This document shows positions 51,909 through 56,024 of a stretch of 64,000 nucleotides of DNA, in pieces. The translations under genes were made by a program, and so were the position numbers. Position 1 is the first letter of the stretch. Each line of letters begins with the position of its first letter. The notes under the pieces were generated by a model. It did not search any database. It saw only the letters and a list, made by a program, of their open reading frames with translations, and was not told where the DNA came from. Origin of the DNA: Nitrosarchaeum sp. (GTDB taxonomy: Archaea > Thermoproteota > Nitrososphaeria > Nitrososphaerales > Nitrosopumilaceae); NCBI GenBank assembly GCA_965223865.1, contig OZ245020.1:1472001-1536000 (forward strand). Direction: 5' to 3'.

Positions 51909-52087
51909 GTGATGTATTCATAAAACTTCGAATTAATTCTCACAATGAACAAAAGCAATTGTCTTGTATAGTATCTGAACCCTATATCCCTGGGTTATTC
52001 ATGTTAAAAGAGGCAGCCAATCTACTTACAATCAAAAAACCACAAGAAGATTTTGATTTCTTTTATTTGATACAGATCTCACATTAA
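51909..52087 (+). pseudogene. endonuclease V remnant
   Basis: EPYIPGLFMLKE at 51977-52012 (EndoV PYIP wedge plus catalytic Glu) followed by DFD; stops and frame changes upstream. Confidence 0.55.
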
Positions 52088-52128
52088 TAGAATGAAAAAG
52101 GTATTAGGTAATTTAGACAATATGTATC

Positions 52129-52446
52129 ATGGCAAAAGTAAACTCTAGCATGAGATCTATAAAAAAGAATTCAAGAACATATTCAGATTCTTCTAAAATC
52201 AAATGTCCTACATGTGGCTGTGATTCGATTTTCAATATTGATGGGGCAACATCTGGTTTTTTGTATAATTATAATTATGAATTCAAGGGCTATGGAAATT
52301 ATTCTTTTAGTCAAGAAATTATCAAAGTTCAAAAATGCCCTACATGTGACAAATTGAGATTATTCACACCGGATGGTCCTTTATCTCATTCAAAGTTCAT
52401 AGAAATAAAAAAGAAAGTAGAAAAAATAATATCAGAATACAAATAA
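52129..52446 (+). CDS. Zn-ribbon hypothetical protein
   Basis: CPTCG...KCPTCD. Confidence 0.75.
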   Translation: MAKVNSSMRSIKKNSRTYSDSSKIKCPTCGCDSIFNIDGATSGFLYNYNYEFKGYGNYSFSQEIIKVQKCPTCDKLRLFTPDGPLSHSKFIEIKKKVEKIISEYK

Positions 52447-52482
52447 TTTCTAATTTAGATAATATTTTGGTAAAATATCAAT

Positions 52483-53904
52483 TCAAATTTTTGTAAATGT
52501 GATTTGAAACCCATCTGGGGTATTACCTGAAAATTGAGTATACGAATGATTCTGTACGGTTATTACATAATTCCATGGAAGTGATCCATTTAACATTCCT
52601 TGTAATCGTAGAATCTTGTTTTGTTGATCAAATTGCCAATATCCGTTTATAATTGATCTTTGATTTAATGCCTGCTCAAGCAAATCAACATAAAATTCAC
52701 CTGCCGGACTAAATTGTACTTGTCCTACACTACCAGTTAAATTATTGATAGAGAAATTCCAACTTCCAATTGGACTAAAGACAGTGGGAGTGGGCGTAGG
52801 TTCAAATTTGTTAATTTGAGAAGGTTCAGATGTCTGTGAATCTTTAATTTTTGATATGTTATCTGCGATTTCTTCTTCTAATTTACCTCCAAATTTTTCT
52901 AACAACCCTCTTAATGTTATGCTGGGAGTTTTATTGACATCTGTTTTTCGTTTTTTGGTTTCTTGTTTGGGTGCTAATTGTTGTTTGTTCATTTGCTTTT
53001 GAACTAATTCTTCTATAATCGATTTTACTGAAGATTTATCAATCTTATTTCCCATTTGTTCCTCAACTACTTTTTTGACTATCTTTTCAATAGTATCAGA
53101 ATCAACAGCATTTCCTTGGTTTGGTTTTGCTAAACTGGGATATTCGGCAAGAAAGATATCCCCACTTCCGTCAACTTTTCTTGTAGGTCTTTGATCTTGT
53201 GAGAAATCCAGCATTTTTTCATACACATAATTTCCCAAAGAATGTGGTGTGACATAACCGTCTTTATCAACTGCCGATGAATTAGAACCATTCAAACCAT
53301 TATTGATGTGATAAGTAAAGACACTATAGGAGTTATCTTTTTTTGCAAACGACTCTTGAGAGCCAAGAGATGAGGCCAACACATAACGCCCTTCACCTTC
53401 TTGCTTGAAACTATCTTCAATCTTTCTTTTTCCAATCAGTGCCTTAGATTTTTCATCTCCTTTGCTTGGAACATCTAGCGCACCACTATAGCAGCAATCA
53501 ATGATTTTTACTATCTTTGTGGAGTTACTATTCCGGGATATTTTTGAAAGATCATCATAACTATAGCCTTCAAGATCTGGTTTATCAGCCCTTGTTTCAG
53601 AGGTTACAAAATAGTAATCATTTCGTCCATGGGGGACCCCATGTCCTGAATAATATAACAATAATGTATCATTAGAATTTACATCATCTCCTCTAAAAAA
53701 TTTCTTGATAGCTTTTGTCATTTCGTAATGATCTATTCGTCCTATTAGCTTTCTTTCAGGTGGAATTTCAAATCCTATTTTTTTGAGAGTTTTAAACATT
53801 AATTCACCATCATTTTTTACAAAATCTAAATTTGGAAAGTGATCGTATTTACTAATTGCAACTATCATAGCTTTTTTTCTGTCTTGCTTTTCTGTTTTAG
53901 ACAT
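52483..53904 (-). CDS. caspase-family (peptidase C14) protein with coiled-coil linker and C-terminal beta domain
   Basis: KAMIVAISKY, LLYYSGHG (His), IIDCCYSG (Cys), SVFT..I..GL.G...D.DG.VT...L..YV. Confidence 0.9.
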   Translation of the reverse strand: MSKTEKQDRKKAMIVAISKYDHFPNLDFVKNDGELMFKTLKKIGFEIPPERKLIGRIDHYEMTKAIKKFFRGDDVNSNDTLLLYYSGHGVPHGRNDYYFVTSETRADKPDLEGYSYDDLSKISRNSNSTKIVKIIDCCYSGALDVPSKGDEKSKALIGKRKIEDSFKQEGEGRYVLASSLGSQESFAKKDNSYSVFTYHINNGLNGSNSSAVDKDGYVTPHSLGNYVYEKMLDFSQDQRPTRKVDGSGDIFLAEYPSLAKPNQGNAVDSDTIEKIVKKVVEEQMGNKIDKSSVKSIIEELVQKQMNKQQLAPKQETKKRKTDVNKTPSITLRGLLEKFGGKLEEEIADNISKIKDSQTSEPSQINKFEPTPTPTVFSPIGSWNFSINNLTGSVGQVQFSPAGEFYVDLLEQALNQRSIINGYWQFDQQNKILRLQGMLNGSLPWNYVITVQNHSYTQFSGNTPDGFQITFTKI

Positions 53905-54022
53905 TATCTAGATCATGTTTGTTTTATCAAGAATTAATTATTTTCCAAAAAAATTCAAAATCATCATTTATGAGAGAACAAGTAAATGCTGACTTTTAAT
54001 AGTTTGATTTGGAGTCTATACT

Positions 54023-54289
54023 ATGTCTGAAGAGAACAAAGTGGAATTACTCTTCTCCAAAGAAGGAATACCCACAGACACAGGATACCAAAGTAAAGGT
54101 CTCATGGAAAATAAGTTTAAGGGATTTTCCACATCTGTTGATAAAATAATTCAGCGATTTGACAAATATCAAGTTGAATCTATAGAATTATGGATACAAG
54201 CTGCTGCAGAAACAGATGGAATCCTCAAACTTCTAGTTAGTGCCAAAGGTGAAGGAGGAATGAAAATTACTTTAACCCCAAAAAATTAG
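54023..54289 (+). CDS. Pepco/Trypco-like small beta-hairpin protein
   Basis: Helix then YQVESIELWIQAAAETDG.LKLLVSAKGEGGMKITL; divergent from the caspase gene. Confidence 0.6.
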   Translation: MSEENKVELLFSKEGIPTDTGYQSKGLMENKFKGFSTSVDKIIQRFDKYQVESIELWIQAAAETDGILKLLVSAKGEGGMKITLTPKN

Positions 54290-54364
54290 ATCAAATCTTT
54301 ATTTTTTTATTTTTCTATTAAGATATAATCACGTAAACAATATTCATTAATTTTGTTACCATAA

Positions 54365-54520: not shown

Positions 54521-54632
54521 AACATTTACTCAGAAACACATTCTAATAAATTTAAAAAAAATTAGAGAATATAATCTCAAAAATTGATTAAAAAATTTAC
54601 AATCTATAATTTAAAATTAATCAAATTTTCAC

Positions 54633-54863
54633 TTACCCTACTTTCTCACTGTAATGATACCTTAGAATATTTTTCATCAAAGGATAGTAAATCTCATTGG
54701 ATTTGTGAGATGATTTGCTGTGAGATAATAGCTTTTCACAGTACTGTCTCTCCTCTGCAGTTAACTGCGATGAATGCAGATAGTTTTTCTTTGCAGCCAA
54801 ATCATACAAGAATGAATAGTATTCTTGGAGTATCTCTTTTTCTTTTACTTCTAATAGACTCAT
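54633..54863 (-). CDS. hypothetical protein
   Basis: 76-aa helical ORF. Confidence 0.7.
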   Translation of the reverse strand: MSLLEVKEKEILQEYYSFLYDLAAKKNYLHSSQLTAEERQYCEKLLSHSKSSHKSNEIYYPLMKNILRYHYSEKVG

Positions 54864-54929
54864 TTGTATTTCAAAAGTGTCATTGCAGACAAATTATTTA
54901 GGACGTATCTTACTTTTTGATTATTCTAG

Positions 54930-54975
54930 GTTCAAGATTTGAATTTTTTTAACTAGTTTAGTTCAATTTTTGAAC
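54930..54975. promoter_or_regulatory. paired RTTCA-N5-TGAAY operators upstream of the Lrp-family gene
   Basis: TTCAAGATTTGAA 54931-54943 and TTCAATTTTTGAA 54962-54974, 31 bp apart. Confidence 0.55.
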
Positions 54976-55012
54976 ATCTGTGGGTATCTTTGCAATATGA
55001 GACTGAATAAAC

Positions 55013-55618
55013 ATGACTATGGCACAAACACTTTCCAAAAATAACATCATAATTGATGATATTGACAGACAAATTCTAAACTTGTTGATTTCAAATGCAA
55101 GAGATTCAACTAGAACTATTGTAAAGAAACTAGCAGGCATGGGAGTAAACATGTCTGAACGAGGCATAGGTAAGAGAATAGCACGACTAGAAAAACTAGG
55201 CATAATTCATGGCTATACCACAATGGTTGATCTCAATCAGGTAAACATGCCAATTTTGAGACTAGTTACTGTGAAATTTACATCTCCAAAAGACTTTGTA
55301 ACCAGACTAGAAGAGATGAAAGAGTATCTAAATGACGCACCATACTGTGACTTTTCAGCAAGAACAAATGGGAATATTGACTGGATTGAGCTGAAATTTT
55401 TCAACAATCACGAGCAGGCAAAACAAGAAGAGGATTTGTATCGAGCATGGTTTGGAGATATCATAGAAGATTACAGATCATATGACCTTGACATCCATAA
55501 AATGGGATGGCAGTTATTTGATGAGGATGATTTTAATCGGTTTATCCAAAATATGTGTAAAAGGGAAGGCTCAGAAACCTGTCCAAACATTAAACTCCAA
55601 ACTAGGAAAAAACACTAG
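55013..55618 (+). CDS. Lrp/AsnC-family regulator with atypical C-terminal domain
   Basis: IDDIDRQILNLL..NAR.S, KRIARLEKLGIIHGYT. Confidence 0.88.
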   Translation: MTMAQTLSKNNIIIDDIDRQILNLLISNARDSTRTIVKKLAGMGVNMSERGIGKRIARLEKLGIIHGYTTMVDLNQVNMPILRLVTVKFTSPKDFVTRLEEMKEYLNDAPYCDFSARTNGNIDWIELKFFNNHEQAKQEEDLYRAWFGDIIEDYRSYDLDIHKMGWQLFDEDDFNRFIQNMCKREGSETCPNIKLQTRKKH

Positions 55619-55630
55619 ATAGGCACACAA

Positions 55631-55675
55631 ATTCATTTTCTGAACTGCTCTAAGAGCTCAATTCAGTTTCTGAAT
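55631..55675. promoter_or_regulatory. paired RTTCA-N5-TGAAY operators upstream of the 72-aa membrane gene
   Basis: TTCATTTTCTGAA 55632-55644 and TTCAGTTTCTGAA 55662-55674, 30 bp apart. Confidence 0.55.
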
Positions 55676-55740
55676 AAAATGATACGATATAGTTTGCTCC
55701 ATTTCAAGTAGTTTGACAGCTACATATCATTTGAGAAAAC

Positions 55741-55959
55741 ATGAGTACCTATGATATACAACAAGTCTCTGAGAATACAAAGACAAAACTCGGAGTAATC
55801 GGTCTAGTTGCCTTACCGATAGTTGCAGCAATGTATTCCTCTGGAAGCATGGCCCTAGAACAAGTACCTCAAACACTCACAAGCGGAGTATTTCCAATTG
55901 GGTTTACCTTGTTCTCATGGGGTATTGCTGTGAAATTGGCAACAAAGTTGAGAAAGTAA
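55741..55959 (+). CDS. small two-TM membrane protein
   Basis: Two hydrophobic helices, basic C-terminus, T-rich terminator after the stop. Confidence 0.75.
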   Translation: MSTYDIQQVSENTKTKLGVIGLVALPIVAAMYSSGSMALEQVPQTLTSGVFPIGFTLFSWGIAVKLATKLRK

Positions 55960-56024
55960 TTACTTTTTCAATTTTTTTGTGATTAATTGTTGTGTTAATT
56001 GTCTGGAAATTATAAACAGGGATT

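What the first reader, a model, noticed from the sequence alone, without database searches (positions are those of the whole stretch)
52483..54289. Caspase plus Pepco/Trypco-like pair sharing an SKG motif: candidate protease-activated defence module in an ammonia-oxidising archaeon
Seen: a C14 peptidase with intact SGHG/DCCYSG dyad, a coiled-coil linker and an unassigned ~100-aa C-terminal beta domain. It lies head-to-head (118 bp gap) with an 88-aa protein made of a short N-terminus, a helix and a long Gly-containing beta-hairpin. SKG occurs just after the catalytic Cys (DVPSKGDEK) and near the N-terminus of the partner (YQSKGLM). Established: Pepco/Trypco/EACC small domains co-occur with caspase or trypsin peptidases in bacterial conflict systems, and prokaryotic caspase homologues typically cut after Lys/Arg. 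Inference: the beta domain is a sensor, the protease cuts itself and the partner at SK|G, and the processed partner oligomerises as an effector. I know of no description of such a module in Nitrosopumilus-like archaea.
Basis: partly seen in the sequence, partly recalled or inferred. Interest (0 to 1): 0.75.

Follow-up and report, generated by a model that had tools for sequence, protein, structure and literature searches.

The report
Archaeal caspase with Pepco-like partner
An ammonia-oxidising archaeon carries a two-gene unit, a caspase-type protease and a small partner protein distantly like the bacterial pore-forming protein Pepco, which probably works as a protease-triggered cell-death or antiviral switch of a kind so far described only in bacteria.

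Summary
A 473-aa C14 peptidase (His88/Cys138) lies head-to-head, 118 bp apart, with an 88-aa protein.

The shared SKG is not above chance in this pair alone: 6 shared tripeptides against 10.1 in shuffles. Relatives make it meaningful.
- The small gene sits beside a C14 or CHAT protease in 29 non-redundant clusters. 27 of these have [KR]-G at the aligned loop position.
- 0 of 7 clusters linked to an M4 peptidase plus metallophosphoesterase, and 0 of 15 fused to a PLD domain, have it there.
- 24 of 29 partner caspases (18 of 23 distinct) carry K-G 8-13 residues after the catalytic Cys.

The partner fails Pfam's Pepco cut-off (13.6 against 27 bits). Pepco is still its top hit, and hhalign against genuine Pepco gives 65% probability, score 31.3 against 10.7 ± 2.5 for shuffles.

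The caspase's C-terminal domain is a lipocalin-like 8-stranded barrel that swaps between protease families. A sister species has deleted the unit.

Best reading: a protease-licensed effector module, a new archaeal variant cut N-terminally at K|G. Cleavage, oligomerisation and defence are all inferred.

The parts
52483..53904 (-). Gene for a 473-aa C14 (orthocaspase-type) peptidase with a C-terminal barrel domain
   Evidence: ORF. Pfam Peptidase_C14 E 1.1e-18. PADLOC 'caspase' E 1.8e-7. NCBIfam 'caspase, EACC1-associated type' 114.8 bits, below its cut-off of 140. It is the only C14 match in this genome.
53281..53880 (-). Caspase catalytic domain (residues 9-208), with His88 (53641-53643) and Cys138 (53491-53493)
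   Evidence: Pfam envelope. The SGHG and D[CS]C[YFCH][SA]G columns are kept in all 29 aligned partner caspases.
53458..53466 (-). S147-K148-G149, candidate autoprocessing site 10 residues after the catalytic Cys
   Evidence: K-G lies 8-13 residues after the Cys motif in 24 of 29 partner caspases, or 18 of 23 distinct sequences. That this is an autoprocessing site is an inference.
52813..53118 (-). Charged linker (residues about 263-364) between protease and barrel
   Evidence: Only weak Pfam hits below threshold. It aligns only among close relatives (casp_mid hits). Coiled-coil character was not tested.
52486..52812 (-). C-terminal eight-stranded lipocalin-like beta-barrel domain (residues 365-473), the presumed sensor or regulatory module
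   Evidence: AF2 pLDDT 90.6 with 8 strands. Foldseek hits are de novo beta-barrels (E 2.7e-4, TM 0.56), lipocalin-like 4qrl, nitrophorins, avidins and Cap15 7n34. The same domain is 69% identical over 127 aa on a CHAT protease, P0180, and 24-25% identical on the CHAT proteases of L054, L057 and L058.
53905..54022 (.). 118-bp AT-rich divergent intergenic region (presumed promoters)
   Evidence: Sequence. My own reading finds TATA-like stretches about 20-28 bp upstream of each ATG; this was not tested. Closest relatives have a 123-bp spacing.
54023..54289 (+). Gene for the 88-aa Pepco-like partner protein
   Evidence: ORF. 26 homologous clusters. 234 family representatives at E <= 1e-3. Top Pfam hit is Pepco at 13.6 bits, below the cut-off of 27. 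hhalign against genuine Pepco gives 64.9% probability.
54038..54058 (+). N-terminal beta strand (residues 6-12, VELLFSK), a conserved 'ELxF' element
   Evidence: AF2 strand 6-12. L9 and F11 are nearly invariant. It aligns to the 'VETMFP' segment of genuine Pepco.
54092..54100 (+). S24-K25-G26, candidate protease cleavage site in a flexible loop
   Evidence: K25 is invariant in A1. pLDDT is below 50 for residues 19-28. [KR]-G occurs here in 27 of 29 clusters linked to C14 or CHAT proteases, and in 0 of 22 clusters linked to M4+MPE or fused to PLD.
54116..54286 (+). Conserved core (residues 32-88): short strand, helix, beta hairpin, KGEGG loop, last strand, LxPK end
   Evidence: Invariant or nearly invariant columns. 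AF2 elements. This region aligns to Pfam Pepco positions 52-111 of 112.
52729..54362 (.). Segment missing from a sister species (G004): most of the caspase gene plus the whole partner gene
   Evidence: Synteny. The junction alignment shows a short ACTA microhomology. G004 keeps the caspase 3' remnant (window 52083-52728 at 87% identity).

Best explanation
This is a self-contained two-gene, protease-licensed effector module.

The 473-aa protein is an orthocaspase-type C14 protease. Its C-terminal lipocalin-like barrel acts as the input (sensor or regulatory) domain.

On activation the protease is proposed to do two things:
- process itself at K148|G149, the classical position just after the catalytic Cys;
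- cut the 88-aa partner at K25|G26, in a flexible loop between an N-terminal beta strand and the conserved helix-plus-hairpin core.

The freed 63-aa core is a distant relative of the bacterial Pepco/Trypco1 proteins. It is proposed to be the toxic output, most likely a membrane-active beta-rich oligomer. The outcome would be growth arrest or death of the cell, for example on virus infection.

Shown here:
- gene pairing;
- co-divergence of the two genes;
- co-variation of the site with protease type;
- modularity of the C-terminal domains;
- remote similarity to Pepco;
- accessory distribution.

Inferred:
- cleavage at these sites;
- the sensor role of the barrel;
- oligomerisation, pore formation and toxicity;
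- the antiviral purpose.
For: 1. Linkage.
- tblastn finds a C14 domain next to the small gene in the window-type loci, in divergent, convergent and co-directional arrangements. Caspase identity falls as low as 36-45%.
- All 4 non-g10 genomes of the family sample that hold the small gene hold a C14 gene beside it: G000, G189, G273 and G292.
- Pairwise distances of partner and caspase correlate: Mantel r 0.76, with 0 of 2000 permutations as high, over 25 pairs. Shared descent contributes to this.
- None of the window's flanking genes travels with the pair.

2. Variable protease C-termini around a constant partner: TPR arrays, NHL propeller, PKD/Ig/cadherin-like, SIR2_2, and the barrel. The barrel also occurs on CHAT proteases next to the same small protein.

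3. Site.
- [KR]-G is at the aligned loop position in 24 of 26 C14-linked and 3 of 3 CHAT-linked clusters. The other two have K-S.
- It is there in 0 of 7 M4+MPE-linked and 0 of 15 PLD-fused clusters.
- The loop is low-confidence, so probably flexible.
- The same [IV]-[ST]-K-G motif lies 8-13 residues after the catalytic Cys in 24 of 29 partner caspases.
- Orthocaspases cut after basic residues (PMC6426788, abstract seen in the listing).
- A defence caspase cuts its hydrolase effector at conserved R|G (Evans et al., passage of section 7).

4. Pepco relation.
- Pepco is the top Pfam hit.
- 5 of 24 close homologues give weak Pepco hits.
- Trypco1 or Pepco are the only recurring weak hits among 149 representatives.
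- The Atlas neighbours at ranks 2, 3 and 7 are Trypco1 or Pepco clusters, at 0.83-0.84, which is a lead only.
- hhalign of 156 family members against 3 genuine Pepco proteins gives 64.9% probability, P 6.1e-5 and 86 colinear columns. The score is 31.3, against 10.7 ± 2.5 (maximum 20.5) for 100 column shuffles and 13.5 for the reversed alignment.

5. The caspase's best NCBIfam model is 'caspase, EACC1-associated type' (E 3.6e-33).

6. Accessory behaviour.
- The small gene is in 13 of 401 family genomes.
- C14 is in 16 of 401. This tally includes the unpublished G363; without it the count is 15 of 400.
- A clean 1.63-kb deletion removes the unit in a sister species.

7. Defence-flavoured relatives.
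- PLD fusions resemble DrmC (E 1.3e-15).
- One small-gene locus lies beside AbiU.
- One partner caspase carries a ThsA-like SIR2 domain.
Against: - The partner does not reach Pfam's Pepco cut-off (13.6 against 27 bits), and none of 149 representatives does. hhalign probability is 65%, not above 90%.
- Characterised Pepco differs. It is cut in a roughly 20-aa C-terminal tail after a conserved Ile and is an oligomer before cleavage. Here the tail after LxPK is only 0-8 residues.
- No fold match to any solved structure.
- The neighbourhood in this genome holds no recognised defence genes.
- Some family members have no protease within the DNA seen. L103 and L104 have 5-kb flanks and still carry R-G. 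L109, L061 and L062 lie beside MarR or RibD_C genes, L117 is another case, and L056 lies beside an unknown 392-aa protein.
- Many bacterial relatives carry signal peptides, which does not obviously fit a cytoplasmic suicide effector.
- A second K-G (K33-G34 of the window protein) aligns with [KR]-G in 13 of 15 PLD-fused clusters. K-G as such is therefore not exclusive to protease-linked forms.
- 5 of 29 partner caspases lack K-G after the Cys.
- Clusters are related by descent, so the counts overstate independence.
Confidence: 0.55

Rival explanations
1. The caspase itself is the effector, cutting many cellular proteins. The small protein is its guard: a decoy substrate, inhibitor or trans-acting prodomain that keeps the protease quiet until it is cleaved or displaced.
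For: Effector-independent defence caspases exist (Evans et al., discussion passage). An orthocaspase is known to cut an antitoxin (PMC7935541, abstract in the listing). Twelve of the 16 caspase-bearing genomes of the family sample lack the small partner, so such caspases can work without it. A conserved substrate-like K-G loop would also suit a decoy.
Against: The same small domain is also fused to a DrmC-like PLD, and is paired with an M4 peptidase plus a metallophosphoesterase. That makes it more than a caspase-specific inhibitor. Its best-conserved part is the beta-rich core, not the loop. Its nearest known family is a pore-forming effector.
Confidence: 0.15
2. The small domain is an oligomerisation or adaptor module that assembles or localises its enzyme partners (caspase, CHAT, MPE, PLD). 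It has no toxic activity of its own. Cutting the loop only tunes assembly.
For: It occurs as the N-terminal domain of PLD proteins in Bathyarchaeia, and in an operon with a metallophosphoesterase (4-bp overlap) in Nitrosotalea-like genomes. Small domains that couple effectors are a known theme: the EADs of Kaur et al. 2020, PMC7159879 (passages).
Against: There is only one copy in this genome, so there is no second copy for the homotypic pairing that EADs use. The K/R-G site tracks the protease type, which points to cleavage rather than mere docking.
Confidence: 0.15
3. The pair serves a non-defence process, for example stress-regulated proteolysis or a small-molecule response through the lipocalin-like barrel. 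Its resemblance to conflict systems is only architectural.
For: There are no recognised defence genes around it in this genome. It is absent from the viral contigs searched. The barrel fold is typical of small-ligand binders.
Against: Its distribution is sporadic and a sister species has deleted it. The protease C-termini are hypervariable, with TPR, NHL, Ig-like and SIR2 domains. Its relatives have defence-type neighbours or fusions.
Confidence: 0.1

Closest known systems
Pepco (PF24393; also called Trypco1/Trypco2) with its linked protease
   Same: Both are small stand-alone proteins of about 90-120 aa, encoded beside a protease that carries variable sensor domains. The order of elements is the same: N-terminal 'xxLxFP' strand, linker, helix, beta hairpin, Gly-rich loop, last strand and a basic end. 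Pepco is the top Pfam hit, and the profile-profile score lies far above shuffles.
   Different: It falls below the Pfam cut-offs. It is archaeal and mostly caspase- or CHAT-linked. Its C-terminal tail is only 0-8 residues, where SsPepco has a roughly 20-aa tail cut after Ile97. The candidate site here is N-terminal, K|G. Pepco's pre-formed SDS-resistant 9-10-mer barrel is not shown here.
EACC1-caspase two-gene system (Kaur et al. 2020, PMC7159879; Evans et al. 2025)
   Same: Both are two-gene units with a constant small partner and a caspase whose C-terminus varies. The window caspase's best NCBIfam model is the EACC1-associated caspase type. EACC1 is licensed by removing an N-terminal autoinhibitory piece that forms a sheet with the C-terminal strands. 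That is the logic proposed here.
   Different: EACC1 has a conserved transmembrane helix with a Gly patch. By my own reading of the translation, the 88-aa protein has no hydrophobic stretch of that length. There is no Pfam match to EACC1 at E <= 1. The putative EACC1 cleavage site is at Asp49, not K|G. The caspase scores 114.8 bits against a cut-off of 140.
alpha/beta-hydrolase-caspase module (LcHydrolase/LcCaspase, Evans et al. 2025)
   Same: A caspase-like defence protease cuts its neighbouring effector at conserved basic-Gly bonds (R|G). Here the conserved motif is K/R-G.
   Different: That effector is an enzyme zymogen cut twice, not a small non-enzymatic protein.
Orthocaspases and metacaspases (Peptidase C14)
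   Same: The Pfam match is above threshold, and the His-Cys dyad is present. A basic residue lies shortly after the catalytic Cys, where caspase-family enzymes are commonly processed; this position is recalled, not taken from a call.
   Different: This one is fused to a lipocalin-like barrel and tied to a dedicated small partner. Most described orthocaspases have no assigned substrate.

Membership tests
Pepco (Pfam PF24393) / Trypco1 (PF19493) | Scores at or above the curated Pfam gathering threshold | tested here: not met
   Window protein: Pepco 13.6 bits against a cut-off of 27. Of 24 close homologues, 5 give weak Pepco hits (best E 0.018). Of 149 family representatives, 0 reach a cut-off; the best are Pepco 18.0 and Trypco1 17.2 bits.
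Pepco (Pfam PF24393) / Trypco1 (PF19493) | Profile-profile similarity to proteins that do pass the Pepco threshold | tested here: inconclusive
   The genuine Pepco proteins used were L124 (46.6 bits), L125 (45.6 bits) and P0176. hhalign of A2 against them gives 26.6% probability and P 6.9e-4. The 156-member family alignment gives 64.9%, P 6.1e-5 and score 31.3, against 10.7 ± 2.5 for shuffles. This is well above the null but below the usual 90% level, and the Pepco profile rests on only 3 sequences.
Pepco (Pfam PF24393) / Trypco1 (PF19493) | Small stand-alone protein encoded next to a peptidase that carries variable sensor domains | tested here: met
   Adjacent C14 or CHAT in 29 non-redundant clusters, and an M4 peptidase nearby in 7 more. 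Protease C-termini include TPR, NHL, PKD/Ig, SIR2 and the barrel.
Pepco (Pfam PF24393) / Trypco1 (PF19493) | Licensing by removal of a C-terminal tail after a conserved Ile (SsPepco Ile97) | tested here: not met
   Sequences end 0-8 residues after the conserved LxP[KR], and P0020 ends at the K itself. The conserved protease-type-dependent site lies in the N-terminal loop instead.
Pepco (Pfam PF24393) / Trypco1 (PF19493) | Constitutive denaturation-resistant 9-10-mer beta barrel | not testable with these tools
   This needs biochemistry, cryo-EM, or modelling of 8-12 copies, and the complex tool takes at most 4 copies.
EACC1 | Single conserved transmembrane helix with a small-residue patch | tested here: not met
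   By direct reading of the translation, the 88 residues hold no hydrophobic stretch of transmembrane length. AF2 gives only a 7-residue helix, 39-45. No EACC1 hit in Pfam at E <= 1.
EACC1 | Partner caspase belongs to the EACC1-associated caspase type (NCBIfam NF047832) | tested here: not met
   It is the best and only NCBIfam hit, at 114.8 bits (E 3.6e-33), but the curated cut-off is 140.
Peptidase C14 (orthocaspase type) | Caspase-fold domain above the Pfam threshold, with a His-Cys dyad | tested here: met
   68.2 bits against a cut-off of 21.4. SGHG and DCCYSG are conserved in the alignment of 29.
Peptidase C14 (orthocaspase type) | Cleavage after Lys or Arg | not testable with these tools
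   This is inferred from the conserved K/R-G in both proteins and from the literature. It needs an enzyme assay.
Lipocalin-like / calycin eight-stranded barrel | Eight-stranded up-and-down beta barrel | tested here: inconclusive
   AF2 gives 8 strands at pLDDT 90.6. Foldseek TM is 0.55-0.6 to de novo barrels, lipocalin-like proteins and nitrophorins, with best E 2.7e-4. The Atlas gives lipocalin leads at 0.85. The fold class is likely; homology and ligand binding are not shown.

The most novel reading that the evidence does not exclude
It is licensed from the N-terminus by a clan-CD protease, by a K|G cut that frees an edge strand as in EACC1, rather than from the C-terminus. In this genome the trigger would be a small molecule bound by the caspase's lipocalin-like barrel. 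That would make it a ligand-gated caspase that fires a pore-forming death effector in a globally abundant nitrifier. The same core domain has been reused with M4 peptidase plus metallophosphoesterase, and fused to DrmC-like PLD nucleases.
Probability: 0.25. Interest if true: 0.8.

Novelty: new variant of a known kind. Interest (0 to 1): 0.62.

Why it matters
Protease-gated death effectors (Pepco, EACC1, gasdermin and others) have so far been characterised only in bacteria. Very little is known about immunity or programmed death in ammonia-oxidising archaea, which drive much of marine and soil nitrification and are heavily infected by viruses.

This module gives a compact, testable two-gene system with:
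- a predicted scissile bond in both proteins;
- a natural 'knock-out' sister genome;
- a family of at least 234 representatives that current domain libraries do not name.

It would also show that the licensing position in Pepco-like proteins can move from the C- to the N-terminus as the protease class changes.

Tried and rejected
- Foldseek against the PDB with the small-protein model: no match at E <= 0.001.
- VIA-align against 48,161 chains: best Z 2.6.
- Complex prediction with four copies of residues 26-88: the verdict was 'no answer' (score 0.29, mark 0.42). This is no evidence either way.
- RNA evidence: no RNA holder was listed.
- Viral contigs: no relative of the small protein.
- Plasmid collection searched with a genuine Pepco protein, to enlarge the Pepco profile: no match.
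- Homology search from a genuine Pepco protein: only one further sequence.
- Pepco family search in the order of G722: no new members, 1 of 8 genomes.
- Pepco model against the window's own genome: only a 12.8-bit chance-level hit elsewhere.
- The search of earlier findings by place and by sequence: nothing.
- An EAD-type homotypic pairing was considered and set aside, because the genome holds a single copy of the domain.
- C-terminal trimming after K87, as in Pepco, was considered. It is less likely because the tail is 0-8 residues and the LxP[KR] end is kept in forms without a clan-CD protease. It is not excluded.
- The weak G050 hit (E 0.004) was not followed up.
- The supplements of the bioRxiv paper are closed. 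I could not check whether its PSI-BLAST survey already lists these archaeal proteins.
Full report
**What is there.** The window holds two divergent ORFs 118 bp apart. One is 52483-53904 (-), 473 aa. The other is 54023-54289 (+), 88 aa. Residues 9-208 of the large protein match Pfam Peptidase_C14 (E 1.1e-18, 68.2 bits, cut-off 21.4) and PADLOC's 'caspase' model (E 1.8e-7). Its best NCBIfam model is 'caspase, EACC1-associated type' at 114.8 bits, below that model's cut-off of 140. SGHG (His88) and DCCYSG (Cys138) are present, and these columns are kept in all 29 aligned partner caspases. It is the only C14 gene in this genome.

**Is the shared SKG more than chance?** Not on its own. The two proteins share six tripeptides. 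Shuffled versions share 10.1 on average, and 94% of shuffles share six or more. The signal comes from relatives.

**The pair is a conserved unit.** The small protein has 26 homologous clusters in the 5.8-billion-protein collection. The only names given are 'hypothetical protein', from Nitrosarchaeum. An HMM of 29 diverse members finds 234 representatives at E <= 1e-3 among 1.84 billion proteins.
- In whole genomes of the same family it is rare: 13 of 401, and 0 of the 6 other species of the genus.
- C14 peptidases are also rare: 16 of 401. This tally includes the unpublished genome G363; without it the count is 15 of 400.
- All four genomes outside genus g10 that hold the small gene hold a C14 gene beside it.
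- I examined 80 metagenome loci (the best 80 of 206 relatives) and 25 genome loci. tblastn places a C14 domain next to the small gene in the window-type and Nitrososphaera-type loci. The arrangement may be divergent, convergent or co-directional, and caspase identity falls as low as 36-45%.
- None of the window's other neighbours travels with the pair.
- Distances between partners and between their caspases correlate: Mantel r 0.76, 0 of 2000 permutations, 25 pairs. Shared descent contributes to this figure.

**A constant partner, a variable protease.** The caspases beside the small gene end in different domains:
- TPR arrays
- TPR plus NHL propeller
- PKD, Ig and cadherin-like repeats
- a ThsA-like SIR2 domain
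- nothing recognisable
- the window's own domain

The window's C-terminal domain (residues 365-473) folds with high confidence (pLDDT 90.6) into eight strands. It resembles de novo beta barrels, lipocalin-like proteins, nitrophorins, avidins and, weakly, the Cap15 nucleotide receptor (Foldseek, best E 2.7e-4, TM about 0.55-0.6). The Atlas gives lipocalin leads at 0.85. The same barrel sits on a CHAT protease at 69% identity over 127 aa, while the protease parts are unrelated in sequence (P0180). At 24-25% identity it also sits on CHAT proteases that again lie beside a homologue of the small protein (L054, L057, L058). It therefore behaves as an exchangeable input module. That it binds a ligand is inference from the fold class.

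**The site.** I clustered the small proteins at about 90% identity and aligned 60 complete representatives.

| Context of the small protein | Clusters with [KR]-G at the column of K25-G26 |
|---|---|
| C14-linked | 24 of 26 (the other two have K-S) |
| CHAT-linked | 3 of 3 (R-G) |
| M4 peptidase + metallophosphoesterase | 0 of 7 |
| Fused to a PLD domain | 0 of 15 |

The last two classes have Gln or Pro at that column. Nine clusters with no protease seen, mostly on short contigs, are mixed: K-G in 4, R-G in 1, other residues in 4. The loop has pLDDT below 50 in the AF2 model, which fits an exposed linker between strand 6-12 and the core.

In the proteases, K-G lies 8-13 residues after the catalytic Cys motif in 24 of 29 sequences (18 of 23 distinct), usually as [IV]-[ST]-K-G. 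The exceptions are L004 and L055 (K-S), L045 (K-T-G), and L005 and L046 (M-G).

Orthocaspases cut after basic residues (PMC6426788, abstract in the listing). Evans et al. report that a defence caspase cuts its neighbouring hydrolase at conserved R|G bonds (bioRxiv 10.1101/2025.11.14.688446, section 7 passage).

Two caveats apply. The clusters are related by descent. A second K-G (K33-G34) aligns with [KR]-G in 13 of the 15 PLD-fused clusters, so K-G as such is not exclusive to protease-linked forms.

**Relation to Pepco.**
- Pepco is the top Pfam hit of the window protein, but at 13.6 bits against a cut-off of 27.
- 5 of 24 close homologues give weak Pepco hits.
- None of 149 family representatives reaches a cut-off. 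The only recurring weak hits are Trypco1 (two, about 17 bits) and Pepco (one, 18 bits).
- The Atlas lists Trypco1 and Pepco clusters at ranks 2, 3 and 7 (0.83-0.84, a lead only).
- I obtained genuine Pepco proteins from two bacterial genomes (46.6 and 45.6 bits) plus one homologue. hhalign of the 29-member alignment against these three gives 26.6% probability and P 6.9e-4.
- A 156-member family alignment gives 64.9% probability, P 6.1e-5 and 86 colinear columns. These run from the N-terminal 'xLxFP' strand to the basic C-terminal end.
- One hundred column shuffles of the Pepco alignment score 10.7 ± 2.5 (maximum 20.5) and the reversed alignment scores 13.5, against 31.3 for the real one.

I read this as a probable distant branch of the Pepco/Trypco superfamily that current libraries do not capture. 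It is not a member by the curated test.

**How it differs from characterised Pepco.** According to Evans et al. (abstract, introduction and section 8 read), SsPepco is a 117-aa protein. It is already a 9-10-mer beta barrel before cleavage, and it becomes toxic when a trypsin-type Avs4 removes a roughly 2-kDa C-terminal tail after Ile97. Here the sequences end 0-8 residues after a conserved LxP[KR]. That end is kept in forms without a clan-CD protease. The protease-dependent site is N-terminal. The logic is closer to EACC1, whose N-terminal piece pairs with C-terminal strands and is removed by a caspase (section 9). EACC1, however, has a transmembrane helix (Kaur et al. 2020, PMC7159879, passage), and by my reading of the translation the 88-aa protein lacks one.

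**Other contexts of the domain.**
- In Nitrosotalea-like genomes, all 12 loci have the same arrangement. An M4 protealysin-like peptidase faces divergently an operon of a metallophosphoesterase and the small gene, whose ORFs overlap by 4 bp.
- In soil Bathyarchaeia the domain is the N-terminus of a 300-340-aa protein. Its C-terminus is a DrmC-like PLD domain (E 1.3e-15), and the gene always lies downstream of HMG-CoA synthase.
- One locus lies beside AbiU.
- Many bacterial relatives carry signal peptides.

These contexts show that the core domain is a reusable module. They keep alive the rival that it is an assembly or adaptor domain rather than a toxin.

**Accessory status.** A sister species (G004, 87-89% DNA identity, syntenic on both sides) lacks window 52729-54362. 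It retains the last ~82 codons of the caspase gene, and the junction shows a 4-bp ACTA microhomology. The unit was therefore present in the common ancestor and later deleted there. The window's neighbourhood holds no recognised defence genes, and no viral contig carries the domain.

**Verdict.** Its interpretation is largely borne out by comparative evidence, with three corrections:
- The SKG coincidence becomes meaningful only through conservation.
- The partner is Pepco-like but fails the family's curated threshold, and it differs in where it would be cut.
- Oligomerisation, toxicity and defence remain untested.

Literature searches for caspases, defence systems or Pepco in ammonia-oxidising archaea found no description of such a module. 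The supplements of the key preprint could not be read. I rate this a new variant of a known kind.

Noticed in passing
window 54619-55996: A 1,378-bp segment is repeated at 100% identity at G000:C1:1717710-1719087. It holds a 76-aa ORF (-), a 201-aa AsnC/Lrp-type HTH protein (+) and a 72-aa ORF (+). The sister species G004 also has two copies, at 88% identity to these. This may be a mobile or concertedly evolving element, and it starts 256 bp from the deletion end-point.
   Followed up: partly
window 52729-54362 versus L126 (G004:C1:172000-180000): The sister species has a clean 1.63-kb deletion of the module with ACTA microhomology at the junction. A caspase 3' remnant is left.
   Followed up: yes
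L096 6003-8559; L105-L107; L006-L013: Nitrosotalea-like genomes have a conserved triad: an M4 protealysin-like peptidase facing an operon of a metallophosphoesterase and a homologue of the small protein (4-bp overlap). The small protein lacks the K/R-G site there. This may be a metalloprotease-licensed version of the module.
   Followed up: partly
L063-L094, L110-L123 (e.g. L085 3974-4891): In soil Bathyarchaeia the Pepco-like domain is fused, through a low-complexity linker, to a DrmC-like PLD domain. The gene always lies just downstream of HMG-CoA synthase.
   Followed up: partly
L052 / L053: Here the small gene is flanked by two caspase genes. One carries a ThsA-like SIR2_2 domain, and its N-terminal part appears to lie in another frame, which suggests a frameshift or an assembly error.
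   Followed up: no
P0074, P0100, P0116, P0120, P0129, P0131, P0157, P0165, P0166, P0128, P0155: Bacterial relatives of 107-176 aa begin with signal-peptide-like hydrophobic segments and carry the domain at the extreme C-terminus. Their genomic context is unknown.
   Followed up: no
L125 488-1812: A genuine Pepco gene (45.6 bits) overlaps by 4 bp a downstream 332-aa ORF that contains an HELGH motif. That ORF is probably a zinc metallopeptidase, so Pepco proteins can also pair with metalloproteases. The ORF was not scanned against Pfam.
   Followed up: no
L056 2799-6257: A small-protein homologue without the K/R-G site follows a 392-aa protein with no Pfam or PADLOC match. It lies next to an AbiU/AIPR abortive-infection gene.
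   Followed up: no
window 52129-52446: A 105-aa protein with two CxxC pairs (weak zinc-ribbon hits only) is convergent with the caspase gene. G004 keeps it despite the deletion, and it does not travel with the module elsewhere.
   Followed up: partly
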